A stretch of 64,000 nt of DNA, from the NCBI GenBank assembly GCA_964343355.1, contig CAYFJC010000001.1:111-64110 (forward strand), written 5' to 3'. The notes below the pieces were generated by a model. The model had not been told where the DNA came from. It did no database searches and saw only the letters and a list, made by a program, of their open reading frames with translations. The translations under genes and the position numbers were made by a program. Within the stretch, counting starts at the first letter, position 1. Each line of letters begins with the position of its first letter. The DNA comes from an uncultured Gammaproteobacteria bacterium. GTDB taxonomy: Bacteria; Pseudomonadota; Gammaproteobacteria; Magnimaribacterales; D2472. Below are positions 5,162 to 56,758 of this stretch, piece by piece.

Positions 5162-6109
5162 ATGGATTTATTTACAAGTGTTGCATGGCTAACCTTATCT
5201 CTAACCCTTCTAATATGGGGAGCTAATAAATTTATTGATAGCGCTTCCTCTATTGCGGGTAAATTGGGTATAAGTGATTTTATTATCGGATTGAGTGTTA
5301 TCGCCTTAGGAACTTCTTTTCCAGAAATATTTGTTGGAATATCATCCATTGTTAACAACAATGAAGAGCTTGCACTCGGGACTATTGTTGGATCTAATAT
5401 CTCTAATGTTGCATTAATTTTTGGTGTTTCATGCATAGGTTATTCGAGTGCTATCAACCCCTCATCAAAGAGAAATTTTATAGCCCTTGGTCTAAGTGTC
5501 ATTATCGCTATATATGCTCTTAGTGATCTGAATATTAGTCAGCTTGATTCTTTATTACTACTTTTAGTGCTCATATATTTTATATACGTGATGGCGACAC
5601 AGCCCAATAATCAAGATCAAGTTATAGAAGTAAATAATTCAGCTTGGTTAGGTCTTATTAGTCTCCTTGTAATTGGATTGGTTGCTTTAGTTATAGGCTC
5701 AAATTATGCAGTTATCCATGGAGAAAAAATTGCCTTATTGATGGGAGTACCCAAATTAATAGTAGGTCTTACGGTTCTAGCTTTAGGAACGAGCTTGCCT
5801 GAGCTTGCTGTAACGATAAGCGCTCTAGTTAAGAAGAAGAATCAAATGGTGCTTGGAAATATAATAGGTTCAAATGTTTTAAATATTGCAGTTGTAATGC
5901 CTATTTTGGGTCTATTTTCAGATCAAACTTATGATGTCTCTATAATGACAAGAGATATGGTTGTAATGTCAGTTTTGACTCTGGTATTTGTACTAATAGC
6001 TTTAAGCTTTAACTATAAAAATATATCTGCCAATATATATCGATTCTTAGGAGTCGCTCTTGTAACTGGCTATGTTAGTTATATTGTTATGCTAAGCGGA
6101 CTTCTTTAA
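5162..6109 (+). CDS. Ca2+/Na+ antiporter (CaCA family, YrbG-like)
   Basis: 315 aa polytopic membrane protein. It has the two alpha-repeat signatures GTSFPE and GTSLPE, each followed by GSN. Confidence 0.8.
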   Translation: MDLFTSVAWLTLSLTLLIWGANKFIDSASSIAGKLGISDFIIGLSVIALGTSFPEIFVGISSIVNNNEELALGTIVGSNISNVALIFGVSCIGYSSAINPSSKRNFIALGLSVIIAIYALSDLNISQLDSLLLLLVLIYFIYVMATQPNNQDQVIEVNNSAWLGLISLLVIGLVALVIGSNYAVIHGEKIALLMGVPKLIVGLTVLALGTSLPELAVTISALVKKKNQMVLGNIIGSNVLNIAVVMPILGLFSDQTYDVSIMTRDMVVMSVLTLVFVLIALSFNYKNISANIYRFLGVALVTGYVSYIVMLSGLL

Positions 6110-6517
6110 GGGCTTGAAAAGTAATAAAGCAACTAAGCAAAAAGTAAAAGTTAAAATTTCAAATAGAAAAAAGGTATTAACCAGCGGTGGTGTTGAGGGT
6201 ATTGCGGCAAATATTATTCTTCCTGCAGCAATACTTCCTGTAAGAAACATTAAAAGTTGGAGAGAGATTTTCATATAATTTAATGAAAAAATACCAATAA
6301 AACATAAGACTCCAACCCCTAGATTTAAACCACCATATATCCCAGCAAGCTCAGAGTAGCCAATCTGGCTAGAGATGCTTAGACCAATATATTCAGTTAT
6401 TGAAGGGTAATCTGCATCTACTGCACTAAATAGTGGCGATAGTATTGCCCATACACCAATACCAAAATACATAAGTGTCATTGATAGAAGAAATAACCTA
6501 ATAATCCAAATCATCAC
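6092..6517 (-). CDS. Small 4-TM membrane protein (DUF4345-like)
   Basis: 141 aa with four hydrophobic segments. It shares the pattern (S/G)EL..(I/V)(Y/F)GG..L..G and GRII with the 131-aa ORF at 17496..17891, suggesting paralogy. The family name is my recollection and is not verified. Confidence 0.5.
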   Translation of the reverse strand: MMIWIIRLFLLSMTLMYFGIGVWAILSPLFSAVDADYPSITEYIGLSISSQIGYSELAGIYGGLNLGVGVLCFIGIFSLNYMKISLQLLMFLTGSIAAGRIIFAAIPSTPPLVNTFFLFEILTFTFCLVALLLFKPLKKSA

Positions 6518-9280: not shown

Positions 9281-9365
9281 TGGTAGGGATGGAGGGGATC
9301 GAACCCCCACGCCTTGCGGCACTAGGTTCTAAACCTAGCGTGTCTACCAGTTCCACCACATCCCC
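9281..9365 (-). tRNA. tRNA-Leu (anticodon UAG), class II, CCA encoded
   Basis: The reverse complement is GGGGATGTGGTGGAACTGGTAGACACGCTAGGTTTAGAACCTAGTGCCGCAAGGCGTGGGGGTTCGATCCCCTCCATCCCTACCA. It has a 7-bp acceptor stem (G1-U72 wobble), a D arm, anticodon stem CTAGG/CCTAG with loop TTTAGAA, a long variable arm and T-loop GTTCGATC. Confidence 0.9.
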
Positions 9366-9449: not shown

Positions 9450-12400
9450 TTAATTTTTTATTATCGTTAATTTAGATTTTGTATTCTTTGCCTCAGCTGC
9501 ATTCTGTACTTTTAATTTAGAGATCATAGAAGATGCGCTTAGGCCTCCTCCGCTTGATCGAGTTTTAAGATATACACTTGTAGCCTCAACATCTCTATCA
9601 ACTAGAGTAAAGAATTCATATTGTGATGTAACTTCAGGGTACTGCTCCCAAATCTCTCCTGTACCTCTAATATAGCCATCACTATCAATATTGGTAGAGA
9701 AAAGCCAATAATAACTTCCTATATCAATATCACTAACGTTAAAGGTTAAGCCACCAGCACCTAGCTGAACTCTCCAACCTTTATAATATTCGCCATCTTC
9801 ATCATAAAGATACGCTAGTACATATCCAATCTCCGGACTGGTTCTTTCTGCACCAGAAGAATATGTAAAGGTAACATTCGATTTAGTACCGTCGCTTAAT
9901 TCGGCAATAATACTTCCAGTATAAGTACCATCAGGAACTTCTCCTCTTGTAAGAGTAACTTTATAAGTTCCATAACCATCGCTATCAACATCGATTGTTG
10001 AAATTGATGTTAGTGAAGAATTGGATGAAACTAATTGAGTAACAGTAAGATCACCAGTTCCCACTTTACTCACAGTTATTGTCTTTTCAGTATCTGTATA
10101 ACCAAATACAAAAGAACCAGGAGTTATGGTTGCATATGTAAAATCAAGTCCGCCATCAATTAAGTTGGTAAAGGCTTTATCAAGGTTTATTAACCCATAA
10201 CCAAATTCATCATCCTTGCCTTCTGTTCCTATGTCATCAGTAAAGAAACCAGATTTAATAAATGCTTCCATTTGAATAGCATCCCATTCAGGTTTTAACG
10301 CGTATATTAAAGCAATAGCTGCAGAGGCATGAGGAGCTGCCATAGATGTTCCTTGATAATAAGTAAGATTTTCACTTCCATCAAAAGCCAAAATACCATC
10401 AGACTGACCATCACCATTTAAATCAGTACCTGTAGTTCCACCTGGAGCTGCTAGATCTACTGCATCATTGTAAGTTGAATAATATGCTCTTTGTGAAAGA
10501 GGATTAACTGCGGCAACTGAAATAACATTATCGCACGATGCGGGATAACCCTTAATTCCAGGAGATTCTTCAGCACTATTACCAGATGAAGCAACAACAG
10601 TTACACCACTATTAGTAACATCTAGAATTGCATTTCTATAAGCTGTGCTACAACCACCACCTATACTGCCTAAGCTCATATTTACTACTTTAATAGGTGC
10701 TGAGCCTGCGTAAACTTGGCCTGTAATATTAGGAAGTCCAGCAGCAAATAACATAGAGTTTGTAACGTCTGATTGTGAAGCTCCTCCACTAGGACCAAAG
10801 ACTCTAAATGGAACAGTATGAATTCCAAATCCGTTTATATTATTTCCATCATTTGCCGCAGAAATTGTTGTAGCTACATGAGTTCCATGAGAGTTACTTG
10901 CAACATCAACTGCGTCAGTAGGATCAAAATCATTATCAATAAAATCAAAACCGCCATCTAAGAAATGAGAGGTTGTCCATGCAGATGATGTTGTGTTTGG
11001 TGAACCAGAATCAATTACAGCAACAGCAACATCTTTAACCTCTTGACCTGTTGCATTGAGAACTTTCTCTAAGCCCATTAATTGAAGACCCCACTGATAA
11101 TCCCAATAAGTATCTTTGGTAAAACCAAGTTTTTGATAAATCTTATTAAACTCGAGATTTAGTTTAGGATTAATATTTTTATAATGCTGGAGAATTTTCC
11201 ATTGTTTTAAATATAAAACTTGTTCGGAATTATTAGCTATTAAATCTTTAGAATCTAGATATGTTTCACTTCCAAATATAGTTGAATATTCATTTTCAAG
11301 ATTGAATTCAATAACTCTTAATCCCATGAAATCTGAATTATCGATATAAGAAAGTTTTTGATTTAGATCTTCATTTTGATTAAATTCAGGATATATATCC
11401 TCATAGGTATCAAGTTTACCTGAGAAGGATCTGTAAGATATAAACTCTCCTTTAACAAAGGCATCTTTGGAAGGAGTAAAGCTTGTACTTGATGCAGAAC
11501 CGCCTGGAGCAAGTAGTAAAGTATATTTACTAGCGCCTACGTCTTTTGCAACAACTGCATAATAAATACCAGAATCTGGAAGATTAATTTTTTGGTATTC
11601 ATCTGATGAGTCTGTAGTATATGAAAAATCAGTTATGACTCCATTTGCGTTATATAAAAGAAGTAGTGGTTTGTTAGTTACTATTGTGGTGTTACCGTCA
11701 GCATCCTCAACTTCTTGCTGATAATCTTCTACTGCAAGTTCAATCTGAAGTCCTGGAACAGTATCAATTTTATACCAATCTTCAGGGTCATCTCTTTGAA
11801 CAGAGTTATAAGATACATTTCCTTCTGCATCAAAAATTACATTACCATCTTCATCTCTAACAATAACTTCGACAAGCTTATCACCAACAAAACCAGTAAC
11901 TTCACTTGGGGTTATTAAGGTTGCAGCATCTTCTTTCGTATTATTAGGCACCTCAGGATAACCAACACCATTATTCATAGGTGTAGGAACATCTCCATCT
12001 AAGACTGTTGTGTTAGAGGTAAGAATGGTTTGTGTTAACGAGAAGGTATCTTTTAAATCTGTAACCTGAACGGTAAGATTTTGTTCTCTTGTTAAGCTAT
12101 TAGTGGTGTCTGTTACTGTAAAAGTAAGTTCGTAGTTATTGTCAGCATCAGCATCTGTTGGACCTTCATAATTAGCACCTTCTAGAGCATTAAATCTCAA
12201 GAAGCCGTTGGAGCCAAGTAAAAATTCAGCTGCATCAGCACCAGTCATAGTTACATCACCAAAGTCATCACCCTCAGGATCGACAACTTCTAAAGTTAGA
12301 ACAGTATTATCATTTTCTTCTATTAAGAAAACAGCAGGAAGGCCTACAAACTCCGGCGCCTCTGAAACATCAGTAATAATTATGCTAACTGCTTGAGCAA

Positions 12401-15400
12401 CTTCATTGCTTCCATCTGAAATTACAACATTAATTTCATATGTATTATTTGTATTAGCATCTGTTGGAACCTCATAATTAGAGGTAGCTGCAAAAGCTAA
12501 AACTCCACCTGTTGATAGAGTAAAGTCATCCGCATCATCACCAGTTAGTGAGAATGTTATTGCATTACCATCAGGATCTGAAGCGCTCACAGTAACAACA
12601 TCAATGGTATTTTCTTCTAGTGTATAAGAGGACTCTAAATCAGTGAATGTTGGAGGATCATTTGTTTCAAGAACAGTAACCGTTCCTGATTTTGTTGAGG
12701 TATTAACTGAATCATCTGCTTTTACAGTAAATTCATATACGTTATCACCATCAGTGTCAGTTGGTGATGCAAAAGAAGGACTTGAATTAAATACAATAAC
12801 TCCTTCTGAAGAAATAGATAACGCAGCAGCATCTGCACCAATTAGTGAAAGCGTTGGGGTGTCACCGTCAGCATCTGTAACTGTTACTGTTAAGACTGAC
12901 GTTTGTCCGTTAGAAACTTCTGTATTTGCAGCGAAGTCAGCAATAACAGGAGCATTATCATTAGCATTAGATACGTTAATGGTAATAGTTTGTGTTGCTG
13001 ATAAATTACCATCAGAAACTGTTGCTGTTGCCGTATAAGTTGTTTTTGTCTCGTAATCAGGCGCGGCTATAAAAGATAATTGTCCTGCTGCGCTTATAGA
13101 TAATTCAGATCCTGAGATAGAGAAACTCATTGAGTTTCCGTCTGCATCAGTTGCTGTAACTGTTCCAATAGCTGTTTGGTTTTCCGCAGCGCTAAATGAA
13201 GCAGATGAGGTAAATACTGGTGCGTTATCATTTAAGTTATTAATACTTACTGTAATATTTTGCGTAACTGAAGCCACGCCATCACTCACAGTAATAGTTG
13301 CTGTATATGAAGACTTAGTTTCATAGTCAGGAACCGATGCAAAGGATAAGGCGCCGCTATCTGTAATAAGCAGCTCTGATCCCGATACGCTAAAGCTTAA
13401 CGAGCTATCATCAGCATCACTTGCTGTAACTGTAGCTATAGAAGTTTGATTTTCATCCGAACTAAAGCTTGCAGAAGATGTGAATACTGGTGCATTGTCA
13501 TTTAAGTTATTTACATTAACAGTTATAGCCTGTGTAGCTGATAGATCACCATCAGATGCAGTAACTGTTGCTGAATATGAAGATTTTGTTTCATAGTCAG
13601 GTGCTGTTACAAAAGACAAAGTGCCGTCTGAGGTTAAGGCTAAATCTGATCCTGAAATACTAAATGTTATAGACGAGCTATCAACATCATCTGCCGTAAC
13701 TGAACCAATGGTTGTTTGGTTTTCATCTGCATCAAAACTCGCTAAAGAAGTAAAGGTTGGCATCTCATTAACATCAGTAACATTTACAGTAATACTTTGA
13801 GTAGATGAATTAATTCCATCTGTTGCTGTTAGAGTTGCTGTATATGAAGGAGTTGTTTCAAAATCAGGCGCTGTTACAAAAGTAATAACACCTCCTGAAG
13901 TTACGGCTAGATCTGTCCCTGAAATGCTGAATGTTATAGATGAGCTATCAACATCTGTAGCGGTCGCAGTTCCAATAGTTGTTTGATTTTCTGGTGCACT
14001 AAAGGTTGCAGAAGATGTAATCACAGGAGCGACATCATCAACATCTGTAATTGCTACTGATATAGCTTGAGTAATCGCGGTTGCTCCATCAGTTACTGTT
14101 ACAGTGGCAGAATAGCTTGTTGTTGTTTCATAATCAGGTGCTGTTACAAAAGTTAGGATTCCTGATGAGGTTATAGCTAGCTCAGAACCAGTAATTGAGA
14201 ATGTTAATGAAAGATTATCAGCATCAGAAGCTGTAACAGTGCCAATAGTTGTCTGGTTTTCAGCAGCACTAAAACTGGCTAAAGAAGTAAATACTGGAGG
14301 GTTATCATTTAAGTTGTTGATACTTACTGTTAGATTCTGATCAGTTGTAGCAATTTCACCTGTAGCTGAAACTACAACTGAGTAAGTAGATTTTGTTTCA
14401 TAATCAGTTGCTGAATTGAATACCAACACTCCAGAACTAGAATCAAGAGTCATTACACTAGCGTCAGTCCCTGAAAGCGCATAGACAACTGTTGCGTCGA
14501 ATGGATCGACTGCTAATACTGTACCAATTTCAGTTTGATTCTCATCAGCATTTAGAGTTGCTGGTGTAGAGAAAACTGGGCCCTCAACATCAACATCAGA
14601 AATATTTACTTGAATATCTTGATCAGTTGTATTTACTCCATCAGAGGCAGTTACTTTTGCTGAGAATGAAGCTAGAGTTTCAAAATCTGGTCTTTGGCTA
14701 AATGTTAAAGCTCCTGAGTTAGAGGCACTTATTGCAGGAAAGCTGTTAGTGCTTGAGCTTACATCGCTACCCATTCCAGGATGAACGCTACAGTAATAAT
14801 ATAAAGCTGCAGGTGTATCTGCAGATACTGTGATAAGAGTAACTCCATCTGTTGAAGTATCAACACCGGCTGTATAAGCCTCGCCACTAGCATGCGTTCC
14901 ATCAGAAGTTGTTGAAAATCTAAATGGGTGAGCTGTTGGATGTTCGAGTCTATAAGTTTTACCAACTTCAAGGAAAAGTGGTTTCTTTTGGGCTCCACTG
15001 ATCACGTAGACATTGCCTGATCCGCTAGCATTAGCAGCTACAGAAACTTCTATTTTTTGAGTAACAGAGTTATCTACAGAATAGGTAATTGTATTCCCAT
15101 CATCAGCATCAGTCGTAGTAACTGAACCAATATCGAGTTGATTTTCAGCTATATTAAATGTTGTCTCAGATGTAAATACAGGAGCATTATCATTAACATC
15201 GATAACACTTACAGAAATATCTTGAGAACCTGAATTTACTCCATCAGATGCAGTAACTGTTGCTGAATATGAAGTTTTAGCTTCATAATCTGGCGTATCT
15301 ACAAATGATAAAACTCCAACAGAGGTAATGGATAACTCAGAACCAGAAATACTATATGTCAGTGATTGAGTATCAGCATCTGTCGCTACAACAGCACCAA

Positions 15401-17456
15401 TTGAAGATTGATTTTCGTTTGCACTAAAAGCTGCTGAAGAAGTGAAATTAGTTGGATTGTCATTTAAGTTAGTTATATCAATAGTTATATTTTCAGTTAG
15501 CTGATTTAGACCATCAGATACCGTTACCGCAGTTGTATATGATGATTTTGTTTCATAATCTGGAGCTACTACAAATGTTAACAATCCACTGCTTGTAATA
15601 GATACTTCGGAGCCGGTGTTGGAATATATAAGGGCATCTAGATCTGCATCTGAAGCATTAACGTTACCAATAGCAGTTTGGTTTTCAGGCGCATCAAAAG
15701 CTAATAAGGCAATAATAGGATTATTATCATTAAGATTATTTAGGTTAACTATTACATCTTTACTTAGTGTGTCTATTCCATCTGTAACAGAGACAGTTAT
15801 GGCATATGAACTTTGCTCTTCATAGTCTGGTGATGATGCAAAACTTAAAACATTTTCAGAAGATAAATTGAAACTTGTAGCATCTGCTCCAGTGATTGAA
15901 ACAGTTAGAGGCTCACTTTCTACATCACTTACATCGATACTAGTAACTGCTGTCTGATTTTCATCAACTGTATAATTTGTAAGTAGATTAGTAAATTTTG
16001 GAATATCATTCACTGAAGTAACAGTAATTGATATGCTTGATACAGAAGTTTGTCCAGCTTGGCTTAGTGTATAAGTAATTTCATCACTTCCAAAGAAATC
16101 ACTATCAGGAGTATAAGAAACTATATTATTAGATATTGATGCTGATCCATTAGTTGGTGCATCAATAGCAACAGATAATGTTGCAGTCGTATTGAAGGAA
16201 TCATTTGCTAGAACATTAATATCAATAGAGGTATCTTCATTAATAATAACTTTATCTGAAAGAGCGGTAATATCTGGAACTAGATCATTAACATCTACAT
16301 TTTGATCAGTAGCAACATAATTCAAAATATCTGTTTGATAACTAGTAAGAGTTGCAGTGGTAGCTGTTCCATTGGCTATTGCCTGAGCATCTGTTTGCAG
16401 GGTGCTAGTTGCAAAATCAAATATAGCAGTCGTATTCGCATCGCTAGCTTTGACCTGAACCACGGGAAGTACGGCAGCTAGTGCACTTATTGTATTAGCT
16501 TTATTAGTATCATCTAAGGTTAGAGATTTAAGAGTTATAACGTTATTTAGAACTTTAGTTATAAAAGCTTCCGTTTCAATATTAACTCTGGTTTCAGTAG
16601 CTGTATATTCTGTATCAAGCTCTTCAGCTATAGCTTTAAAATAGTCTTGAGTGGTCTCTGTTGTGGTATTGAGGTTATTCGTAATATTTTGCAGTGCGTA
16701 AGCAAGAATTGTGAGCTGGTTACCCTTCTCATATAAATAATCATTAATCCCGCCATCACCCTTTCCTACAACTGGATCAACAACACCAATATCAAGACTT
16801 GAATCTATACCAAGAGCTGCATTAACTAGACTGGCATCAGCCATAAATGCTGCAACTGAAGTAACTGGAGTAACAGCTTTAAAATCTGAATGACCAGCAA
16901 GCTTATGGATGATTAAAAGATTGTCTAAAGCATTACCAGAATCAAGATCGGTACCACCTAAACTAATAAGGTTTCCGTCTGAATATTTGATGGTGAATTT
17001 ACCATCATTATCCGATGTCGTTGTATCTTCATCACCATCAGCGGTATATGAATCATTGGTATCAATAAAAATATCAGCTTGTCTAATGTAGCCATCAACA
17101 GAAACACCATCAGTATTTCTATAACCTTCAACAATAGCTGAAGCAGATGCAGAGCCACCAGCACCAGTACAATTAATTCCAAAAGTATTGTCACCTGGAG
17201 TTGAGATAGTTACATCCTCGGTTCCGCTAATAGCCTTAGTGCCTGTCCAAGTTCCAGAAGCAGAACATGAAGTAGCATTAGTAGAAGACCAGGTTAAGGT
17301 AATAACCGTATCAAGAATAACAGAAGAAGATGATGCGCTAAGGGCTGCAGTCGGACTTGGCTCTGGAGGAGTTGGTGAACCACCGCCCCCACCGCCGCCA
17401 CATGCAGCAATAAATACTAAAGAAAACGCTATTGATATTAGATTTTTTATAAACAT
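9450..17456 (-). CDS. Giant (2668 aa) lipoprotein: Ig-like domain, about 13 cadherin-like repeats, cupredoxin-like module, PPC domain, subtilase (S8) domain, C-terminal beta-rich region
   Basis: Single uninterrupted ORF. The signal peptide has lipobox FIAAC followed by Gly7. Repeats carry DxD / xNDNxP calcium-site signatures (LNDNAPVF, ASDADDSSL etc.). The S8 triad motifs are AVIDSG, HGTHVA and GTSMAAPH. Confidence 0.9.
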   Translation of the reverse strand: MFIKNLISIAFSLVFIAACGGGGGGGSPTPPEPSPTAALSASSSSVILDTVITLTWSSTNATSCSASGTWTGTKAISGTEDVTISTPGDNTFGINCTGAGGSASASAIVEGYRNTDGVSVDGYIRQADIFIDTNDSYTADGDEDTTTSDNDGKFTIKYSDGNLISLGGTDLDSGNALDNLLIIHKLAGHSDFKAVTPVTSVAAFMADASLVNAALGIDSSLDIGVVDPVVGKGDGGINDYLYEKGNQLTILAYALQNITNNLNTTTETTQDYFKAIAEELDTEYTATETRVNIETEAFITKVLNNVITLKSLTLDDTNKANTISALAAVLPVVQVKASDANTTAIFDFATSTLQTDAQAIANGTATTATLTSYQTDILNYVATDQNVDVNDLVPDITALSDKVIINEDTSIDINVLANDSFNTTATLSVAIDAPTNGSASISNNIVSYTPDSDFFGSDEITYTLSQAGQTSVSSISITVTSVNDIPKFTNLLTNYTVDENQTAVTSIDVSDVESEPLTVSITGADATSFNLSSENVLSFASSPDYEEQSSYAITVSVTDGIDTLSKDVIVNLNNLNDNNPIIALLAFDAPENQTAIGNVNASDADLDALIYSNTGSEVSITSSGLLTFVVAPDYETKSSYTTAVTVSDGLNQLTENITIDITNLNDNPTNFTSSAAFSANENQSSIGAVVATDADTQSLTYSISGSELSITSVGVLSFVDTPDYEAKTSYSATVTASDGVNSGSQDISVSVIDVNDNAPVFTSETTFNIAENQLDIGSVTTTDADDGNTITYSVDNSVTQKIEVSVAANASGSGNVYVISGAQKKPLFLEVGKTYRLEHPTAHPFRFSTTSDGTHASGEAYTAGVDTSTDGVTLITVSADTPAALYYYCSVHPGMGSDVSSSTNSFPAISASNSGALTFSQRPDFETLASFSAKVTASDGVNTTDQDIQVNISDVDVEGPVFSTPATLNADENQTEIGTVLAVDPFDATVVYALSGTDASVMTLDSSSGVLVFNSATDYETKSTYSVVVSATGEIATTDQNLTVSINNLNDNPPVFTSLASFSAAENQTTIGTVTASDADNLSLTFSITGSELAITSSGILTFVTAPDYETTTSYSATVTVTDGATAITQAISVAITDVDDVAPVITSSATFSAPENQTTIGTATATDVDSSSITFSISGTDLAVTSGGVITFVTAPDFETTPSYTATLTATDGINSSTQSITVNVTDVNEMPTFTSLASFDADENQTTIGSVTADDVDSSSITFSISGSDLALTSDGTLSFVTAPDYETKSSYSATVTASDGDLSATQAITVNVNNLNDNAPVFTSSASFSSDENQTSIATVTASDADDSSLSFSVSGSELLITDSGALSFASVPDYETKSSYTATITVSDGVASVTQNITVSINNLNDNAPVFTSSASFSAAENQTAIGTVTATDADGNSMSFSISGSELSISAAGQLSFIAAPDYETKTTYTATATVSDGNLSATQTITINVSNANDNAPVIADFAANTEVSNGQTSVLTVTVTDADGDTPTLSLIGADAAALSISSEGVIVFNSSPSFASPTDTDGDNVYEFTVKADDSVNTSTKSGTVTVLETNDPPTFTDLESSYTLEENTIDVVTVSASDPDGNAITFSLTGDDADDFTLSTGGVLAFAATSNYEVPTDANTNNTYEINVVISDGSNEVAQAVSIIITDVSEAPEFVGLPAVFLIEENDNTVLTLEVVDPEGDDFGDVTMTGADAAEFLLGSNGFLRFNALEGANYEGPTDADADNNYELTFTVTDTTNSLTREQNLTVQVTDLKDTFSLTQTILTSNTTVLDGDVPTPMNNGVGYPEVPNNTKEDAATLITPSEVTGFVGDKLVEVIVRDEDGNVIFDAEGNVSYNSVQRDDPEDWYKIDTVPGLQIELAVEDYQQEVEDADGNTTIVTNKPLLLLYNANGVITDFSYTTDSSDEYQKINLPDSGIYYAVVAKDVGASKYTLLLAPGGSASSTSFTPSKDAFVKGEFISYRSFSGKLDTYEDIYPEFNQNEDLNQKLSYIDNSDFMGLRVIEFNLENEYSTIFGSETYLDSKDLIANNSEQVLYLKQWKILQHYKNINPKLNLEFNKIYQKLGFTKDTYWDYQWGLQLMGLEKVLNATGQEVKDVAVAVIDSGSPNTTSSAWTTSHFLDGGFDFIDNDFDPTDAVDVASNSHGTHVATTISAANDGNNINGFGIHTVPFRVFGPSGGASQSDVTNSMLFAAGLPNITGQVYAGSAPIKVVNMSLGSIGGGCSTAYRNAILDVTNSGVTVVASSGNSAEESPGIKGYPASCDNVISVAAVNPLSQRAYYSTYNDAVDLAAPGGTTGTDLNGDGQSDGILAFDGSENLTYYQGTSMAAPHASAAIALIYALKPEWDAIQMEAFIKSGFFTDDIGTEGKDDEFGYGLINLDKAFTNLIDGGLDFTYATITPGSFVFGYTDTEKTITVSKVGTGDLTVTQLVSSNSSLTSISTIDVDSDGYGTYKVTLTRGEVPDGTYTGSIIAELSDGTKSNVTFTYSSGAERTSPEIGYVLAYLYDEDGEYYKGWRVQLGAGGLTFNVSDIDIGSYYWLFSTNIDSDGYIRGTGEIWEQYPEVTSQYEFFTLVDRDVEATSVYLKTRSSGGGLSASSMISKLKVQNAAEAKNTKSKLTIIKN
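10167..11105 (-). other. Subtilisin-like serine protease (S8) catalytic domain, aa about 2118-2430
   Basis: The catalytic residues are Asp2149 (VAVIDSGS, codon 11012-11010), His2190 (SHGTHVATT, 10889-10887) and Ser2371 (GTSMAAPH, 10346-10344). They occur in the canonical D-H-S order. Confidence 0.85.
11505..11945 (-). other. Pre-peptidase C-terminal (PPC)-like domain, here placed N-terminal to the protease
   Basis: DPEDWYKIDTVPGLQIELAV ... GIYYAVVAKDVGASKYTLLLAPGG (aa about 1838-1984). The DWY..., YY..V and YTL... patterns are typical of PPC beta-sandwiches. Confidence 0.5.
12055..16010 (-). repeat. In-frame tandem array of cadherin-like repeats (period about 270 nt / 90 aa where measured)
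   Basis: Repeat boundaries read VNDIPKF, LNDNNPII, LNDNPTNF, VNDNAPVF, VDVEGPVF, LNDNPPVF, VDDVAPVI, VNEMPTF, LNDNAPVF (x2), ANDNAPVI, TNDPPTF, VSEAPEF. Two neighbouring PVF codon sets at 13220 and 13490 are exactly 270 nt apart. Copies are diverged: about 65% aa identity between neighbours (by eye), rising to about 80% nt in short stretches. Confidence 0.8.
14742..15068 (-). other. Cupredoxin-like (type-1 copper-like) module inserted in the repeat array, aa about 797-905
   Basis: The segment reads ...GKTYRLEHPTAHPFRFS...(45 aa)...LYYYCSVHPGMG. I place His843, Cys889, His892 and Met895 by counting codons (Cys codon at 14792-14790). The His-to-Cys spacing of 46 and the C-x2-H-x2-M pattern match amicyanin-type blue copper sites. 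Confidence 0.55.
17400..17456 (-). other. Signal peptide with lipobox (aa 1-19) of the giant protein
   Basis: MFIKNLISIAFSLVFIAAC: a basic N-terminus, a hydrophobic core and I-A-A-C, then GGGGGGGSPTPPEPSP. Confidence 0.8.
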
Positions 17457-17495: not shown

Positions 17496-17891
17496 TTAAA
17501 GGTAATAGTCTATCTTATTTTTGCGGTTTTTGTGAGCAAACCATACCAAAATAAGTAAAGATAATTCAAGCATCCAAGAGTAAAAAGTAAAGGTAAGATA
17601 TCCTTCATAAAAAAGACTAATAATTCTTCCAATATTGATGCAAACCAAGATGTATATGATGATTGACGAAACCGTTACATTTGATGATGAGGTAAGAAAT
17701 CTTAGCAATAGATAGCCAAACGCCAACAAAGATCCACCAAAGACAGCCCTTAGTTCTCCTGCAGTCTCTGGATTGTTGATAGTAAAAGGAAATACGGTCG
17801 AAGATAGGTCACTTTTTAGCATTATGTAGCAACCCATAAGTAGAAAAAAACAAGTAAATAAAACTAATATAAGTTTAACTAATTTTTCCAT
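17496..17891 (-). CDS. Small 4-TM membrane protein (DUF4345-like), immediately upstream of the giant gene
   Basis: 131 aa. It shares motifs with the 6092..6517 product. Its start overlaps the stop of the upstream 70-aa ORF by 1 nt (TAATG). Confidence 0.5.
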   Translation of the reverse strand: MEKLVKLILVLFTCFFLLMGCYIMLKSDLSSTVFPFTINNPETAGELRAVFGGSLLAFGYLLLRFLTSSSNVTVSSIIIYILVCINIGRIISLFYEGYLTFTFYSWMLELSLLILVWFAHKNRKNKIDYYL

Positions 17892-49219: not shown

Positions 49220-52015
49220 TTAGAAATTCAATCCAAACTTGATTCCATAAGTTCTAGGATTAGCAAATGTTATATGAACACCTCCACCTGCTAAGTTACC
49301 GTTTGCAGTAACACCATGTTGAAATCTTTTGTCGGCTATGTTTTTAATAAAACCACCAACATACCACTCTTCAGATGCAGGAGTGAATGTAGCTAATATA
49401 TCCATATATTGCGCTTCAGGAAGTTGGAATCTAGCAGAATTAAATAGATCTCCTTCTCTTTCACCTTTATGAACATATGTTAATTTAACGTCTGTTACAC
49501 CACCTGATGTAGGGAATCTTTGTGAGATTGATAAGTTATAATCAAGATCAGATACCAAAGGAACTTTATTGCCTTCAAGTTGCTGCATAGCATCACTTGA
49601 GAAGCCAGCTAATGTTTGAACATCTCCTTGAAGATTATAAATAATACCAGCGTCTGTTAAGCCCCATTGCACCAGTGATGCGAATGAACCAAAAGCATTT
49701 CCTACAGCTGCTGCTGTTCCGGCTGCTGTAGCTGCATCCATGCCAGTCGCTTGAAGAATTCCTGCTAAAGCACTAGTTCCAAAACCAGAAGTGATCATAG
49801 TAGTAGCGTTATTTGGATTGTTTGGATCTCTTGCAACACCGTTACCCATTGCTGAGTCAGATGCTAAGAAGTTGAAATCAATTTCAGTATTATCTGTTAA
49901 GAAGAATTTCATTTGACCTTCAAAGCCTTTGTTCATGTAATCAAAAGTTCTATTAACAACACCAGCTCTTTCTAGCTGACCATATTGACCATTAGTAACA
50001 TCAAATTCAAAGTAAGTTGCATTTAATAGTAATCTTCCGTCCATTAAAATATTTCTGATTCCAATTTCAGTATTGATAGACTCTTCTTCACCATAAGGTA
50101 AATTTATACCTAGCTCATTAGGAGATGTTCCACCGGCTTTTAGGCCAGTTGTATAAGATGCGTAAACCATAGTGTTGTCATTAACAAAGCGTTGAATTGC
50201 CATCTTGTATGTAAAAGCACTATTCTCTGATTGCTCTCTAGTTTGACCTGCATTATTTCTGTCATATGTAGGGTTGTATACATAATTAGGGTTAGTCACA
50301 TCACCTAAAGTACTAAATATAGTACTTTCATAAGTATCATCGTTATATCTCATACCTAAAGTTAATTTAGTAGCATCGTCTATGTCATAGTAATACTCAC
50401 CAAATAAAGCATTTGATTTAACTTTTGTATTTTGACTGGTAATTAATCCACCTAATTCATTTGGAAGCGTTCTATCACATAATCCACCAAGGGCAGCACA
50501 TGTGCCTAGAGTATTTTGAGTGATTAGTCCTAAAGCAGCTGGAAGTCCAATCGCTGGAATTGCAGGAGCTACAGCACCAAATACACCACCGAATACTGAC
50601 CAAAATGCTATTCCGCCTTTACCGTTCATAGCTCCACCAAATAAAGAAGCACTGTAAGGGTGAAGATCAAAAGATCTTAACATTTGATAACCAGCAGTTT
50701 GAAGGATGTAGTTATTAGCTCCATCATTTTCTCTCATATATAGACCAGCAGTAAAGTTATGCGGACCATCAAAATCTGAGATTAAATTAATTTCTGATTG
50801 TCTGTTGATGTCAACAGCTTGTGAACACTCCACAGATTCTGAACGATCAACCATTGCAGCATTAAAACACTGGAATTGAAGTTCCATTGCAGGAACAGGT
50901 CCAACCGCAGTAGAGAATGTTTCACTTGCAAACGAATGATCTTGATCATCTGTATGCTGATAGTCTCTTACTGAGTAAGAATATTTAGCTTTAAAAGTCA
51001 TATCAGATAGTTCTTTTATGTACTCAATCTGTGAGTTTTGAACAACCTGTTGTCTATCCGGATCATGGTTTTTATTAACTCTATCAAGAGTTGAAAACTT
51101 TATAGTATTTGCATAAGAATCAAAGCTAGATGATGGTCTTAAAAACGTTAGAGAATCAACAAATCCAATAATAGTTCCAGCTTCATGAGCTGTTTGGCCT
51201 AATTGACCCTTTTGGAAAGGTGAGCAACCATAAAAAATATCCTTTTCACAGTATTGACCACCAATATTCATTCTATTGTCATCTGAAGAATATTCAGCAG
51301 TATTAAAACGCAATGAGCTTGAATCATCTAAATCCACATCAACTGATAATCTAATTGCATAAGAATCTCTTCCATCAATATCATTACCAGTTCCAATGTT
51401 TTTAACCCATCCATCTTTAACAAATGAACCATAAGCTAGTCTTGTTCTTACATTGTCACCAAACGGTAAGTTTATTGCTGTAGTAATTCTTTCTGATCCA
51501 TAGTTACCCATTTCAACATTAATGTATCCACCAACTTCTGCTTCAGGTCTTGCAGTTACTAAGTTAATGAGTCCACCAACAACGTTTCTTCCATAAAGAG
51601 TTCCTTGAGGACCTGCAAGAATATTTACTTGCTCGACGTCAAAAAAACCAATTTCACCAAAAGCACTTCCTGCTAATGTATGGCCGTTAATAGCTGTTTG
51701 CACAGAAGAAGCAGTACCTGCTCCAACCGCAGCACTAGAAGCTCCTCTAATAGTATATAAAGATCCTGAACCAAGAACATTTTGGTATGAGAATCCTGGA
51801 ACTAATTCAGCTAAATCCTGAACTTCAGTTACTCCGGCGCTATCAAGAGCGTCAGCTGAAAGAGCTTGAACTGAAAGCGCAATATCCTGAATAGATTCAG
51901 ATTTTCTTGTCGCAGTTGTGAGAATCTCTTCAACTTCCTGAGCAAAAAGATTTGTCGGTATTAATAAAAACATTGATGCAGTAGCACCCAATAGATATCT
52001 TAATGATATGTTCAT
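49220..52015 (-). CDS. TonB-dependent receptor
   Basis: Start reset to ATG 52015 (MNISLRYLLGATASMFLLIPTNLFAQEVEEILTTATRKSE), with AAGGGG 8 nt upstream. The plug has LAGPQGTLYGRN. The C-terminal beta-barrel ends ...YGIKFGLNF (terminal Phe). Confidence 0.9.
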   Translation of the reverse strand: MNISLRYLLGATASMFLLIPTNLFAQEVEEILTTATRKSESIQDIALSVQALSADALDSAGVTEVQDLAELVPGFSYQNVLGSGSLYTIRGASSAAVGAGTASSVQTAINGHTLAGSAFGEIGFFDVEQVNILAGPQGTLYGRNVVGGLINLVTARPEAEVGGYINVEMGNYGSERITTAINLPFGDNVRTRLAYGSFVKDGWVKNIGTGNDIDGRDSYAIRLSVDVDLDDSSSLRFNTAEYSSDDNRMNIGGQYCEKDIFYGCSPFQKGQLGQTAHEAGTIIGFVDSLTFLRPSSSFDSYANTIKFSTLDRVNKNHDPDRQQVVQNSQIEYIKELSDMTFKAKYSYSVRDYQHTDDQDHSFASETFSTAVGPVPAMELQFQCFNAAMVDRSESVECSQAVDINRQSEINLISDFDGPHNFTAGLYMRENDGANNYILQTAGYQMLRSFDLHPYSASLFGGAMNGKGGIAFWSVFGGVFGAVAPAIPAIGLPAALGLITQNTLGTCAALGGLCDRTLPNELGGLITSQNTKVKSNALFGEYYYDIDDATKLTLGMRYNDDTYESTIFSTLGDVTNPNYVYNPTYDRNNAGQTREQSENSAFTYKMAIQRFVNDNTMVYASYTTGLKAGGTSPNELGINLPYGEEESINTEIGIRNILMDGRLLLNATYFEFDVTNGQYGQLERAGVVNRTFDYMNKGFEGQMKFFLTDNTEIDFNFLASDSAMGNGVARDPNNPNNATTMITSGFGTSALAGILQATGMDAATAAGTAAAVGNAFGSFASLVQWGLTDAGIIYNLQGDVQTLAGFSSDAMQQLEGNKVPLVSDLDYNLSISQRFPTSGGVTDVKLTYVHKGEREGDLFNSARFQLPEAQYMDILATFTPASEEWYVGGFIKNIADKRFQHGVTANGNLAGGGVHITFANPRTYGIKFGLNF

Positions 52016-52126
52016 ACTTGGTTTCCCCTTTGTGTATATGAAAATTATCGCTATATTCTCATAAAAAGAGCTCTTAGTCATAAAAAAATAGATTTAAATT
52101 TTAGGTATAAAAGATAGGTTTAAAAA

Positions 52127-56729: not shown

Positions 56730-56758
56730 TTATATACATCATTTTTTTGGAGAAACAA

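What the first reader, a model, noticed from the sequence alone, without database searches (positions are those of the whole stretch)
9450..17456. 2668-aa lipoprotein combining an adhesin-like cadherin stalk, a cupredoxin-like module and an internal subtilase
One intact ORF encodes, in order, the modules listed below.
- Lipobox plus Gly7.
- An Ig-like domain (TLTWSSTNATSCSASGTWTG).
- A region of about 290 aa of the type seen at the N-termini of giant adhesins.
- A VLANDS...YTPDSDFFGSDEITYT module.
- About 13 calcium-site-bearing cadherin-like repeats, interrupted by a cupredoxin-like module.
- A PPC domain, a pro-region-like segment and a complete S8 protease.
- About 240 aa of beta-rich C-terminus.
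Giant repeat adhesins usually come with a T1SS or LapG/LapD-type partners, or with T9SS or sortase signals. None is present here, and the only export signal is a lipoprotein signal peptide. I do not recognise this combination of stalk, redox-type module and protease. It is my best candidate in this window for an undescribed cell-surface machine, for example a tethered particle- or prey-contacting protease. The gene also looks more GC-rich than its surroundings (about 40% vs about 27-30% in single lines I counted by hand), which could reflect its Thr/Ser/Ala/Gly/Asp/Val-rich composition or a foreign origin.
Basis: partly seen in the sequence, partly recalled or inferred. Interest (0 to 1): 0.75.

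Follow-up and report, generated by a model that had tools for sequence, protein, structure and literature searches.

The report
SAR86 lipid-anchored stalk carrying a protease
This is a real 2668-residue gene from the abundant ocean bacterium SAR86. It encodes a lipid-anchored, calcium-stiffened stalk with a subtilisin-type protease at its far end, it belongs to a large family nobody has described, and one inserted copper-protein-like domain turns out to be shared with the tail fibres of marine phages.

Summary
The ORF is real: 9450..17456, minus strand, 2668 aa. An independently assembled SAR86 MAG carries a collinear, gap-free 2668-aa orthologue (95% aa identity).

Tools confirm:
- a lipobox followed by Gly7;
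- a Big_9 domain;
- 13 diverged cadherin-like repeats;
- a cupredoxin-fold module nested in a loop of repeat 4;
- an S8 protease with an intact Asp/His/Ser triad.

The PPC call is weakly supported. The "pro-region" could not be verified. The GC anomaly is small (36.8% vs 33.9%), lies only at codon position 2, and does not indicate foreign DNA.

The gene belongs to a large, essentially SAR86-restricted family. Members share the lipobox, Cys-polyGly, a conserved ~370-aa N-module and a cadherin stalk. Their distal heads differ and are reassorted between members, and genomes of 1.1-1.7 Mb carry several paralogues. No secretion partner is encoded nearby.

The most likely reading is an outer-membrane-tethered stalk holding a protease tens of nm from the cell, feeding peptide uptake.

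The cupredoxin-like module keeps a His/Cys/His/Met set. Its closest relatives are domains of cyanophage and pelagiphage tail-fibre and baseplate proteins, not electron carriers.

Verdict: a new variant of a known kind, of moderate-to-high interest.

The parts
17400..17456 (-). aa 1-19: signal peptide with lipobox (FIAA|C); Cys19 is the predicted lipidation site
   Evidence: Sequence. It is the only hydrophobic segment in the protein. The lipobox plus poly-Gly is conserved in 107 of 120 homologues.
17343..17399 (-). aa 20-38: Gly7 followed by a Pro/Ser/Thr-rich flexible tether
   Evidence: Sequence. Cys followed by 2-11 Gly is a family signature.
17124..17342 (-). aa 39-111: Ig-like domain (TLTWSSTNATSCSASG; Cys64/Cys96 pair)
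   Evidence: No Pfam hit. Positions 3-85 of profile A6 match thousands of proteins, often as tandem arrays. It occurs alone in many non-SAR86 genomes.
16257..17123 (-). aa 112-400: family-defining N-region, a beta-sandwich followed by a helical part
   Evidence: Present in 114 of 119 homologues. Homologues give weak Pfam hits to CarboxypepD_reg, DUF5979 and Hydro_N_hd. No PDB sequence hit. In the genome collection, full-length matches come almost only from SAR86 or unclassified marine gammaproteobacterial records.
16014..16256 (-). aa 401-481: Big_9 / tandem-95 type bacterial Ig domain
   Evidence: Pfam PF17963 E 1.4e-27; NCBIfam NF012211.
15198..16013 (-). aa 482-753: cadherin-like repeats 1-3
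   Evidence: Pfam Cadherin and Cadherin_4. Repeat boundaries and alignment.
14601..15197 (-). aa 754-952: cadherin-like repeat 4, the host of the nested insertion
   Evidence: The alignment of the 13 repeats shows a ~105-aa insertion where the other repeats have a 3-8 aa loop.
14742..15059 (-). aa 800-905: cupredoxin-fold module with H843, C889, H892, M895 (C-x2-H-x2-M loop)
   Evidence: AF2 pLDDT 89.6. Foldseek against PDB returns blue copper proteins at probability 1.0 and TM ~0.5. Foldseek against viral structures gives TM 0.74-0.81, E 4e-11. tblastn finds it in 284 phage genomes. The ligand residues are conserved in 32 family copies and 6 phage copies. PHROGs tail families match.
12057..14600 (-). 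aa 953-1800: cadherin-like repeats 5-13
   Evidence: Pfam Cadherin, best stretch aa 1421-1495. Repeats share 23-69% aa identity and at most 70% DNA identity. No tandem DNA repeat is detected.
11481..12056 (-). aa 1801-1992: PPC-like beta jelly-roll; the most variable part between close orthologues
   Evidence: 4 of 12 homologous segments hit Pfam PPC, best E 0.0066. The profile hits the Tk-SP C-terminal domain at E 0.01. The AF2 model is all-beta with pLDDT 50-76. 40 of 122 differences to the 95%-identical orthologue lie in aa 1801-2000.
11121..11480 (-). aa 1993-2112: alpha/beta segment immediately before the protease (pro-region-like, unverified)
   Evidence: No Pfam, PDB or hhalign match. 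A low-confidence AF2 model gives beta-alpha-beta-alpha-alpha-beta. It ends at the conserved F-x-x-D...QW-x-L motif.
10167..11120 (-). aa 2113-2430: subtilisin-family (S8) catalytic domain; D2149, H2190, N2293, S2371
   Evidence: Pfam PF00082 E 7.6e-35. Closest solved structures are Pseudoalteromonas arctica protease 5yl7 (E 9e-29) and Dichelobacter BprV/AprV2. Catalytic residues are invariant in alignment A5.
9453..10166 (-). aa 2431-2668: two beta-rich domains plus a Lys/Asn-rich tail ending in a short hydrophobic motif (LTIIKN)
   Evidence: AF2 secondary structure is all-beta. The first domain has pLDDT 64-93 and the second is low. No PDB or Pfam hit. No transmembrane helix, LPXTG or RTX motif.

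Best explanation
The gene encodes a cell-envelope protease of SAR86 built as anchor, stalk and head.

1. The N-terminal signal peptide is cut at Cys19, which is lipidated. Residue +2 is Gly, so by the E. coli Lol rule the protein goes to the outer membrane. This step is inferred.
2. A poly-Gly/Pro tether follows, then the conserved N-module and a Big_9 domain.
3. Thirteen cadherin-like repeats, stiffened by Ca2+ in seawater, form an extended stalk. At about 4.5 nm per cadherin domain (textbook value) this gives roughly 60-70 nm, against a cell of 0.46 x 0.66 um (PMC11582366).
4. The distal end carries a PPC-like domain, an unidentified alpha/beta segment, an active-looking subtilisin and two beta domains.

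The protease would cut dissolved or particulate protein close to the cell, so that oligopeptides are captured by the many TonB-dependent transporters of SAR86.

The cupredoxin-like insert is most likely a metal-stabilised binding or decoration domain rather than an electron carrier.

Shown: domain content, order, conservation, intact catalytic residues, taxon, family modularity.
Inferred: lipidation, outer-membrane sorting, surface exposure, rigidity, substrate, and whether the head stays attached.
For: - Lipobox and poly-Gly are conserved in 107 of 120 homologues, and there is no other hydrophobic segment.
- 13 cadherin repeats carry Ca-site motifs.
- The S8 domain scores well above the Pfam cut-off. 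The triad and oxyanion Asn are invariant, and the closest solved relatives are secreted proteases of marine and pathogenic Gammaproteobacteria.
- The same anchor, N-module and stalk recur with at least three head types: this S8 type (>=36), a kexin-like S8 with P-domain (>=37) and RTX-like ends (>=4). That fits a general 'display at a distance' scaffold.
- Heads and bases are reassorted. P0003 has 96% N-module identity but a 60% head; P0008 has a 44% N-module but an 87% head.
- Several paralogues occur per 1.1-1.7 Mb genome (PMC11582366).
- The locus is chromosomal with conserved synteny.
- The stalk insert is shared with phage tail fibres, which are extracellular structures.
- An independent study proposed that SAR86 targets protein through TBDTs not linked to CAZymes (PMC8371827). 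Two TBDT genes lie in this window.
Against: - No machinery for moving a lipoprotein across the outer membrane was found. There is no T2SS, Slam or partner gene in the window or next to paralogues. I could not survey whole SAR86 genomes for one.
- Dupont et al. report that SAR86 lacks pili genes and known adhesion pathways (PMC3358033).
- If the segment before the protease is a classical propeptide, autoprocessing would cut the head off the stalk. No cysteine is available to hold the two together: the Cys residues are at 19, 64, 96, 889, 2269 and 2308.
- The head model is of low confidence (pLDDT 56).
- There are no expression or proteomic data.
Confidence: 0.5

Rival explanations
1. Display-then-release. 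The stalk presents a zymogen. The alpha/beta segment aa 1993-2112 acts as an intramolecular chaperone and propeptide. Autoprocessing near aa 2110 frees a soluble ~60-kDa protease (S8 plus beta domains), and the stalk stays on the cell.
For: - The segment sits exactly where subtilase propeptides sit. It ends at the conserved F-x-x-D...QW-x-L motif that opens the catalytic domain.
- The model predicts mixed alpha/beta secondary structure.
- No disulfide could keep the head attached.
- The closest solved relatives are secreted, processed proteases.
Against: - No similarity to I9 propeptides by Pfam, PDB profile or hhalign.
- The kexin-like heads of sister proteins join the stalk with no such segment, so tethering seems to be the family norm (sequences).
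- Building an 8-kb anchor and stalk only to release the enzyme looks costly for a streamlined genome.
Confidence: 0.2
2. The protein is primarily an adhesin or surface-coat protein. The protease serves to mature or shed surface proteins, including itself, as SphB1 and NalP do. It is not a feeding enzyme.
For: - The stalk is built from adhesin-type modules: Big_9, cadherin and an insert shared with phage tail fibres.
- Some family members carry non-protease heads, such as RTX-like ends.
- The PPC-like domain is hypervariable between close strains, as expected for a binding or exposed surface.
Against: - About 60% of the top 120 relatives end in an S8 protease of one of two unrelated subtypes. 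This suggests that proteolysis itself is what is selected.
- SAR86 is described as free-living and lacking adhesion pathways (PMC3358033).
Confidence: 0.15
3. The lipoprotein stays on the periplasmic face of the outer (or inner) membrane and acts as a periplasmic protease or scaffold.
For: This is the default fate of Lol-sorted lipoproteins in Proteobacteria (established knowledge). No export partner was found.
Against: - A ~60-nm rigid stalk does not fit a periplasm of about 25 nm.
- All recognisable modules are of extracellular types: cadherin, Big_9, PPC, and domains shared with phage tail fibres.
- The catalytic domain is most like secreted proteases.
Confidence: 0.1
4. The ORF is an assembly chimera or a collapsed repeat array.
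For: It is repetitive and comes from a metagenome-type assembly.
Against: - An independent MAG (SAR86B FRAM18_bin308) has a collinear, gap-free 2668-aa orthologue at 95.4% aa and 93.7% nt identity.
- Further orthologues of 2666, 2685 and 2701 aa exist.
- Repeats share at most 70% DNA identity, the longest exact repeat is 34 bp, and TRF finds nothing.
Confidence: 0.02

Closest known systems
Secreted subtilases of marine and pathogenic Gammaproteobacteria (Pseudoalteromonas arctica Pro21717, PDB 5yl7; Dichelobacter nodosus AprV2/BprV; deseasin MCP-01 type with PPC domains)
   Same: S8A catalytic domain with the closest sequence match (E 9e-29 to 1e-22). Associated with a PPC-like beta domain.
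   Different: Those are 350-800-aa soluble secreted enzymes with an N-terminal propeptide and a C-terminal PPC. Here the protease is the last quarter of a 2668-aa lipoprotein, the PPC-like domain lies upstream of it, and no recognisable I9 propeptide is present.
Giant RTX adhesins with Ig/cadherin stalks exported by T1SS (LapA, MpIBP, SiiE, FrhA)
   Same: A long Ca2+-dependent stalk of tandem beta-sandwich repeats presents a functional distal region. A few members of this SAR86 family even end in RTX-like repeats.
   Different: This protein has a Sec/SPase II signal and a lipobox, no RTX repeats and no C-terminal T1SS signal. There are no T1SS or LapG/LapD genes nearby. The anchor is a lipid at the N-terminus rather than a plug in a TolC-like pore.
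Gram-positive cell-envelope proteinases (lactocepin PrtP, C5a peptidase ScpA)
   Same: Very large multidomain S8 proteases held on the cell surface to digest external protein for peptide uptake. This is the closest functional analogue.
   Different: Their order is reversed: protease at the N-terminus, spacer, then a C-terminal LPXTG wall anchor. They also have a PA-domain insert. Neither feature is present here. This host is a Gram-negative.
Surface lipoprotein hydrolases of Proteobacteria exported by T2SS (pullulanase PulA, SslE/YghJ) and lipoprotein autotransporter subtilases (SphB1, NalP)
   Same: An N-terminal lipid anchor combined with an extracellular hydrolase in a Gram-negative. This comparison is from my own knowledge and was not tested here.
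   Different: Those depend on a known T2SS or on a C-terminal autotransporter barrel. No barrel domain is detected, and no T2SS could be linked to this protein. None of them has a cadherin stalk.
Type-1 blue copper proteins (amicyanin, pseudoazurin, plastocyanin, rusticyanin)
   Same: The module has the cupredoxin fold and a complete His...Cys-x2-His-x2-Met set, with the short amicyanin-type loop.
   Different: Only TM ~0.5 and 13-19% identity to them. The query module has no Pfam Copper-bind hit; 9 of 32 family copies give weak ones, best E 0.0085. It is nested inside an extracellular stalk with no partner redox centre. It is far closer to phage structural domains (TM 0.74-0.81).
Domains of cyanophage and pelagiphage tail-fibre, baseplate-connector and virion structural proteins (e.g. 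HTVC028P gp32, S-TIM5/S-TIM61, P-TIM68, S-SSM4; phrog_677, phrog_30742)
   Same: The same domain family as the stalk insert: 35-46% identity, E down to 4e-16, in 284 phage genomes. The HP..., C-x2-H-x2-M-G motif is conserved in the six copies aligned.
   Different: In phages it sits in virion proteins, often near the C-terminus of a fibre. Here it is a loop insertion in a bacterial cadherin repeat. Its function is unknown in both settings.
Eukaryotic type II transmembrane serine proteases (matriptase, hepsin)
   Same: The same design logic: N-terminal membrane anchor, modular stem, C-terminal protease zymogen.
   Different: Unrelated protease fold (S1). In those enzymes the protease stays attached after activation through a disulfide, which is not available here.

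Membership tests
Peptidase family S8 (subtilases) | Match to the family profile above the curated threshold | tested here: met
   PF00082 at 121 bits against a cut-off of 21.8, covering profile positions 2-288 of 288.
Peptidase family S8 (subtilases) | Catalytic Asp-His-Ser in that order, plus the oxyanion Asn | tested here: met
   D2149 (VIDSG), H2190 (SHGTH), N2293 (SGN) and S2371 (GTSMA) are all invariant in alignment A5.
Peptidase family S8 (subtilases) | N-terminal I9-type propeptide (typical of the family, not universal) | tested here: inconclusive
   The segment aa 1993-2112 is in the right place. It has no Pfam, PDB-profile or hhalign similarity, and only a low-confidence alpha/beta prediction.
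Bacterial lipoprotein (SPase II substrate) | Positively charged n-region, hydrophobic h-region, and a lipobox [LVI][ASTVI][GAS]C | tested here: met
   MFIKNLISIAFSLVFIAA|C. The motif is conserved in 107 of 120 homologues.
Bacterial lipoprotein (SPase II substrate) | Actual acylation and membrane localisation | not testable with these tools
   Needs biochemistry.
Cadherin-repeat protein | Tandem ~90-110-aa repeats matching the Cadherin profile, with inter-repeat Ca2+ motifs | tested here: met
   PF00028 E 1.2e-42 with 7 significant stretches. 13 units are delimited by DxNDNxP-like linkers and carry ENQ, DAD and PDYE motifs.
Cupredoxin / type-1 copper protein | Greek-key beta-sandwich cupredoxin fold | tested here: met
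   AF2 model with pLDDT 89.6 and 8 strands. Blue copper proteins dominate the PDB hit list, including the top 15, at probability 1.0 and TM 0.45-0.53.
Cupredoxin / type-1 copper protein | His ... Cys-Xn-His-Xm-Met ligand set, with Cys at the end of the penultimate strand | tested here: met
   H843, C889, H892 and M895. The His and Met are invariant and Cys is present in at least 90% of 32 copies, with one Cys-to-Gly variant. The positions fit the predicted strands. The set is conserved in 6 phage copies.
Cupredoxin / type-1 copper protein | Match to curated family profiles (Copper-bind PF00127 and related) | tested here: not met
   No hit for this copy. 9 of 32 copies give sub-threshold hits, best E 0.0085.
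Cupredoxin / type-1 copper protein | Copper binding and electron-transfer function | not testable with these tools
   Needs metal analysis and spectroscopy.
T1SS RTX giant adhesin (LapA/MpIBP type) | No Sec signal; C-terminal RTX nonapeptide repeats and a T1SS signal | tested here: not met
   The protein has an SPase II signal. There is no HemolysinCabind hit and no GGxGxD motif.
T1SS RTX giant adhesin (LapA/MpIBP type) | Adjacent T1SS ABC/MFP/TolC genes or LapG/LapD | tested here: not met
   50 neighbouring ORFs across the 64-kb window are housekeeping genes. No conserved partner lies next to paralogues.
Autotransporter subtilase (SphB1/NalP) | C-terminal beta-barrel translocator domain | tested here: not met
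   No autotransporter domain in Pfam or NCBIfam. The C-terminus is two small beta-sandwiches plus a polar tail.
Gram-positive cell-envelope proteinase (PrtP/ScpA) | PA-domain insert in the S8 domain and a C-terminal LPXTG anchor | tested here: not met
   No PA domain. No C-terminal LPXTG or transmembrane helix.
T9SS cargo | C-terminal Por secretion-tail domain | tested here: not met
   No such hit in Pfam or NCBIfam. The host is a gammaproteobacterium.
PPC (pre-peptidase C-terminal) domain | Match to PF04151, or to solved jelly-roll domains of proteases | tested here: inconclusive
   The query gives no hit. 4 of 12 homologous segments hit at E >= 0.0066, and the profile hits the Tk-SP domain at E 0.01.

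The most novel reading that the evidence does not exclude
The His/Cys/His/Met cupredoxin-like domain is a metal-dependent (probably copper-dependent) extracellular recognition module that marine phage tail fibres and SAR86 surface stalks use for the same purpose: binding a common ligand on picoplankton cell surfaces or marine gel particles. On that reading the SAR86 proteins are contact devices. They dock onto other cells or particles using a phage-type binding domain and digest them with a protease held at the tip. The family's reassorted heads and hypervariable PPC-like domain would reflect an arms race at the cell surface.
Probability: 0.1. Interest if true: 0.85.

Novelty: new variant of a known kind. 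Interest (0 to 1): 0.6.

Why it matters
SAR86 (Magnimaribacterales) is among the most abundant bacteria in the surface ocean. Its genomes are streamlined to 1.1-1.7 Mb, yet they keep several 5-10-kb genes of this family.

How SAR86 gets at high-molecular-weight substrates for its many TonB-dependent transporters is an open question. A protease held on a long lipid-anchored stalk would supply the missing extracellular step. It would also bear on the debate over cell-tethered versus freely released enzymes in the ocean carbon and nitrogen cycles.

It also raises a cell-biology question: how does a gammaproteobacterium with few known secretion systems expose a 280-kDa lipoprotein?

Separately, a domain family that Pfam does not capture shows up here. 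It has a cupredoxin fold with a conserved type-1-copper-like site, and SAR86 surface proteins share it with hundreds of cyanophage and pelagiphage tail-fibre and baseplate proteins. This suggests an unrecognised role for a metal site in extracellular recognition or stability at sea.

Tried and rejected
- **Pfam on isolated segments**: nothing for the Ig-like, N-region, cupredoxin, PPC, PRO or C-terminal parts.
- **Profile-versus-PDB sequence searches:**
  - Cupredoxin module: only plastocyanin at E 0.95.
  - PRO: nothing.
  - C-terminus: nothing.
  - N-module: nothing.
I therefore dropped the claim that it is an I9 propeptide.
- **AF2 of the whole head** (aa 1800-2668) with only 10 aligned sequences: poor model, pLDDT 56. 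Its Foldseek hits beyond the S8 core (Vpr, Tk-SP) are not reliable.
- **afdb50 fold library:** not available.
- **Tandem-repeat and exact-repeat analysis:** no evidence of collapse.
- **DUF4345 as a partner:** the gene just upstream is conserved only at the orthologous locus, not next to paralogues. Rejected.
- **A neighbour cluster seen in 10 loci:** these turned out to be ordinary short-chain dehydrogenases.
- **Foreign origin:** rejected on GC3 and synteny.
- **GlyGly-CTERM, LPXTG, RTX or a C-terminal transmembrane anchor:** all absent.
- **Literature searches:** nothing on the family or on cupredoxin-like phage tail-fibre domains. One broad query was uninformative.
- **Representative-library search with the N-module profile:** swamped by the widespread Ig-like domain, so it gives only a lower bound on family size.


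Full report
**1. The observation**

The window holds one uninterrupted ORF at 9450..17456 on the minus strand. It is 2668 codons long with an ATG start.

Pfam on the whole protein finds the following:
- Big_9 at aa 397-478.
- Cadherin (E 1.2e-42, seven significant stretches) and Cadherin_4.
- Peptidase_S8 at aa 2141-2421, scoring 121 bits against a cut-off of 21.8.

NCBIfam adds only the tandem-95 repeat and partial matches caused by the cadherin repeats and the S8 core.

The N-terminus reads MFIKNLISIAFSLVFIAA-C-GGGGGGG. That is a textbook SPase II signal with Cys19, followed by Gly7 and a Pro-rich tether.

I delimited the repeats by their DxNDNxP-like linkers and obtained exactly 13 cadherin-like units, aa 482-1800.
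- They share 23-69% amino-acid identity and at most 70% DNA identity.
- The longest exact DNA repeat in the gene is 34 bp.
- Tandem Repeats Finder reports nothing.

An independently assembled genome, SAR86B MAG FRAM18_bin308, contains a collinear, gap-free 2668-aa orthologue. It is 95.4% identical in protein and 93.7% in DNA. Other assemblies give orthologues of 2666, 2685 and 2701 aa. The ORF is therefore not a chimera or a collapsed array.

**2.

The *cupredoxin-like module* is real.
- In the alignment of the 13 repeats, repeat 4 carries a ~105-aa insertion (aa 800-905). The other repeats have a 3-8-residue loop at that point.
- I aligned 32 distinct copies from relatives. The HP histidine (H843), H892 and M895 are invariant. 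C889 is present in at least 90% of copies, with one Cys-to-Gly variant.
- AlphaFold2 on this alignment gives a confident 8-stranded sandwich (pLDDT 89.6).
- The leading Foldseek matches in the PDB are blue copper proteins: pseudoazurin, plastocyanin, rusticyanin and amicyanin, all at probability 1.0 but only TM ~0.5.
- The C-x2-H-x2-M spacing is the short amicyanin-type loop (my own knowledge).
- Pfam does not capture the module. This copy gives no hit, and 9 of 32 copies give weak Copper-bind hits.

The *PPC* call is only weakly supported. Four of 12 homologous segments reach Pfam PPC (best E 0.0066), and the profile hits the jelly-roll domain of Tk-SP at E 0.01.

The *pro-region* could not be verified.
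- There is no Pfam hit, no PDB profile hit, and no hhalign similarity to pro-subtilisin.
- All that supports it is its position, immediately before the conserved F-x-x-D...QW-x-L start of the catalytic domain, and a mixed alpha/beta prediction in a low-confidence model.

The *C-terminal 240 aa* are predicted all-beta. The first sandwich is fairly confident (pLDDT 64-93). After it comes a less confident second beta domain and a polar Lys/Asn-rich tail.

The *Ig-like domain* has no Pfam model but is a genuine, widespread repeat. 5919 library representatives match at E<=1e-10, with up to 45 copies in one protein.

The *290-aa N-region* gives only weak CarboxypepD_reg, DUF5979 and Hydro_N_hd hits in relatives.

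The *GC claim* is wrong in size and in meaning.
- The gene is 36.8% GC against 33.9% for the rest of the window.
- The excess lies only at codon position 2 (0.454 vs 0.365), as expected for a Thr/Ser/Ala/Gly-rich protein.
- GC3 is lower than in the neighbours (0.172 vs 0.222).

**3. Where it comes from and what surrounds it**

Full-length matches to the N-module in one-genome-per-species GTDB contigs come overwhelmingly from SAR86 cluster genomes. The remainder are records titled only as unclassified marine Gammaproteobacteria or similar, plus one MAG labelled Alphaproteobacteria. Only the Ig-like domain is found more widely.

The window is core chromosome. It carries ligA, smc, the ccm genes, PDH E1/E2, thrS, cysS, acyl-CoA dehydrogenases, an alkyl sulfatase and two TonB-dependent receptors. 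It has no T1SS, LapG/LapD, T2SS or other secretion genes.

The same neighbours flank the orthologue in other SAR86 genomes: DUF4345, MFS, PNP_UDP and thioredoxin genes. This holds even where the N-module has diverged to 44% identity. The gene is therefore resident, not imported.

The DUF4345 gene 39 nt upstream is conserved only at this orthologous locus, not beside paralogues. I clustered all neighbours of family members in 38 SAR86 loci. No conserved partner emerged. The one recurrent cluster was ordinary short-chain dehydrogenases.

**4. It is a family, and the family is modular**

- Of the 120 best relatives, 107 start with a lipobox followed by Cys and 2-11 glycines.
- 114 of 119 carry the ~370-aa N-module.
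- The distal ends differ:
  - at least 36 have this head (PPC-like, alpha/beta segment, S8, two beta domains);
  - at least 37 have an unrelated kexin-like S8 with a P-domain, joined directly to the stalk;
  - at least 4 end in RTX-like repeats.
- 45 of 120 carry the cupredoxin-like module, at varying positions and sometimes twice.
- Bases and heads are reassorted:
  - P0003 is 96% identical in the N-module but 60% in the head.
  - P0008 is 44% identical in the N-module but 87% in the head.
- Individual SAR86 genomes hold two or three members at different conserved loci, and one locus has two in tandem.
- SAR86 genomes are only 1.05-1.66 Mb (PMC11582366), so this is a substantial investment.
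- Between the window and its 95%-identical orthologue, 40 of 122 substitutions fall in aa 1801-2000, the PPC-like region.

**5. The unexpected relative of the 'copper' module**

- A tblastn of aa 800-901 against 50,697 phage genomes finds the module in 284 of them, nearly all cyanophages and pelagiphages. Identity is 35-46%, with E down to 4e-16. The host proteins are annotated tail fiber, baseplate wedge tail fiber connector or virion structural protein.
- The model matches predicted viral structures much better than it matches blue copper proteins: TM 0.74-0.81, rmsd 2-3 A, E 4e-11.
- PHROGs places it in tail families phrog_677 and phrog_30742.
- All six phage copies I aligned keep the HP histidine and the C-x2-H-x2-M-G motif.
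- A profile search of the protein database also returns many short ORFs that JGI calls 'plastocyanin'. Most look like fragments of larger proteins.

The fold and ligand set are therefore cupredoxin-like, but the family's natural habitat is extracellular structural proteins. I read it as a metal-stabilised binding or decoration domain. Electron transfer is not excluded, but there is no evidence for it and no partner redox centre. I found no paper describing this domain.

**6. How it most likely works**

*Shown.* The protein has an SPase II signal, flexible tether, conserved base, 13 Ca-motif cadherin repeats and a distal protease. The protease has an intact triad (D2149, H2190, S2371) and oxyanion N2293. 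It is most similar to secreted proteases of Pseudoalteromonas and Dichelobacter.

*Inferred.*
- Cys19 is acylated.
- With Gly at +2 the protein is sent to the outer membrane.
- It is exposed on the surface.
- Seawater Ca2+ stiffens the stalk to roughly 60-70 nm.
- The protease cuts external protein near the cell, and the peptides enter through porins and TonB-dependent transporters.

This fits an earlier suggestion that SAR86 targets protein through TBDTs not linked to CAZymes (PMC8371827).

*Weak points.*
- The export route is unknown. No T2SS or other partner was found, and Dupont et al. note that SAR86 lacks pili genes (PMC3358033).
- If aa 1993-2112 is a true propeptide, autoprocessing would sever the head. 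No cysteine is available to hold it: the Cys residues are at 19, 64, 96, 889, 2269 and 2308.

I give the tethered-protease model 0.5, display-then-release 0.2, adhesin with a maturation or shedding protease 0.15, periplasmic 0.1 and artefact 0.02.

**7. Comparison with what is known**

Functionally it resembles the Gram-positive cell-envelope proteinases (PrtP, ScpA) and, in design, eukaryotic type II transmembrane serine proteases. It fails the membership tests for both. It has no PA domain, no LPXTG, the reverse domain order and a different fold.

It uses the stalk principle of T1SS RTX adhesins but fails their defining features. It has a Sec/lipoprotein signal, no RTX repeats and no T1SS or LapG/D genes.

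It is a bona fide S8 subtilase, a bona fide cadherin-repeat protein and, by sequence, a lipoprotein.

Databases name relatives only generically: 'S8 family serine peptidase', 'tandem-95 repeat protein', 'cadherin domain-containing protein'. The SAR86 genome papers I could read never mention protease, peptidase, cadherin or lipoprotein.

**8. Verdict**

The finding is real and mostly as described.

It is a new variant of known kinds (surface-anchored multidomain subtilase, repeat-stalk surface protein), not a categorically new system.

Its interest comes from three things:
- the organism, which is globally dominant, streamlined and hard to culture;
- the unexplained export of a 280-kDa lipoprotein;
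- the unrecognised domain, with a conserved copper-type site, shared with marine phage tail fibres.

Noticed in passing
window 14742-15059 (-), aa 800-905; phage loci L080-L085: The cupredoxin-like insert belongs to a domain family not captured by Pfam. The family is present in 284 cyanophage and pelagiphage genomes, inside tail-fibre, baseplate-connector and virion structural proteins. The His/Cys/His/Met motif is conserved in the six copies aligned. A type-1-copper-like site in phage tail fibres appears to be undescribed.
   Followed up: yes
family proteins P0003, P0008, P0010 versus the window ORF: Mosaic relationships. P0003 is 96% identical in the N-module but 60% in the protease head. 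P0008 is 44% identical in the N-module but 87% in the head. Heads and bases are being recombined among SAR86 family members.
   Followed up: yes
window 11457-12056 (-), aa 1801-2000: Between the window and its 95%-identical orthologue (L002), 40 of 122 amino-acid differences fall in aa 1801-2000, a stretch that consists almost entirely of the PPC-like domain. This is a local hypervariable patch, as expected for an exposed or ligand-binding surface.
   Followed up: partly
L002/L029, L011/L015/L027, L007/L020/L024; L020 480-13230: Single SAR86 genomes carry two or three family members at different conserved loci. One locus (L020) has two giant genes in tandem (1936 and 2319 aa).
   Followed up: partly
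window 17496-17891 (-) and 6092-6517 (-): Two DUF4345 membrane-protein paralogues bracket the locus. One ends 39 nt upstream of the giant gene and may be co-transcribed with it. It is conserved at the orthologous locus in other SAR86 genomes but not next to paralogues.
   Followed up: yes
window 9281-9365 (-): A tRNA-Leu(tag) gene lies 85 nt downstream of the giant gene's stop codon. No terminator-like hairpin was detected in the interval, so read-through or co-transcription is possible.
   Followed up: no
window 9453-9560 (-), last ~35 aa; homologue C-termini: Type-A heads end in a low-complexity Lys/Asn-rich tail. A conserved GG(L/I)(S/N)A(A/S)S motif precedes it. The tail closes with a short hydrophobic motif (LTIIKN, LRIIKK, RVYKINPP or IPFNxN, depending on the subgroup). 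This could be an unrecognised sorting or docking signal.
   Followed up: no
window 17124-17342 (-), aa 39-111: The N-terminal Ig-like domain (LTWSSTNATSCSASG) has no Pfam model. It nevertheless occurs in thousands of proteins from many phyla (Steroidobacteraceae, Patescibacteria, Burkholderiales and others), often as arrays of 10-45 copies.
   Followed up: partly
window 54296-56143 (-), flanked by TonB-dependent receptor genes at 49220-52081 and 56747-59125: A 615-aa protein with an N-terminal PETase-like (cutinase/esterase) domain lies near two TonB-dependent receptor genes. This may be another extracellular-hydrolase-plus-uptake pairing in the same window.
   Followed up: no
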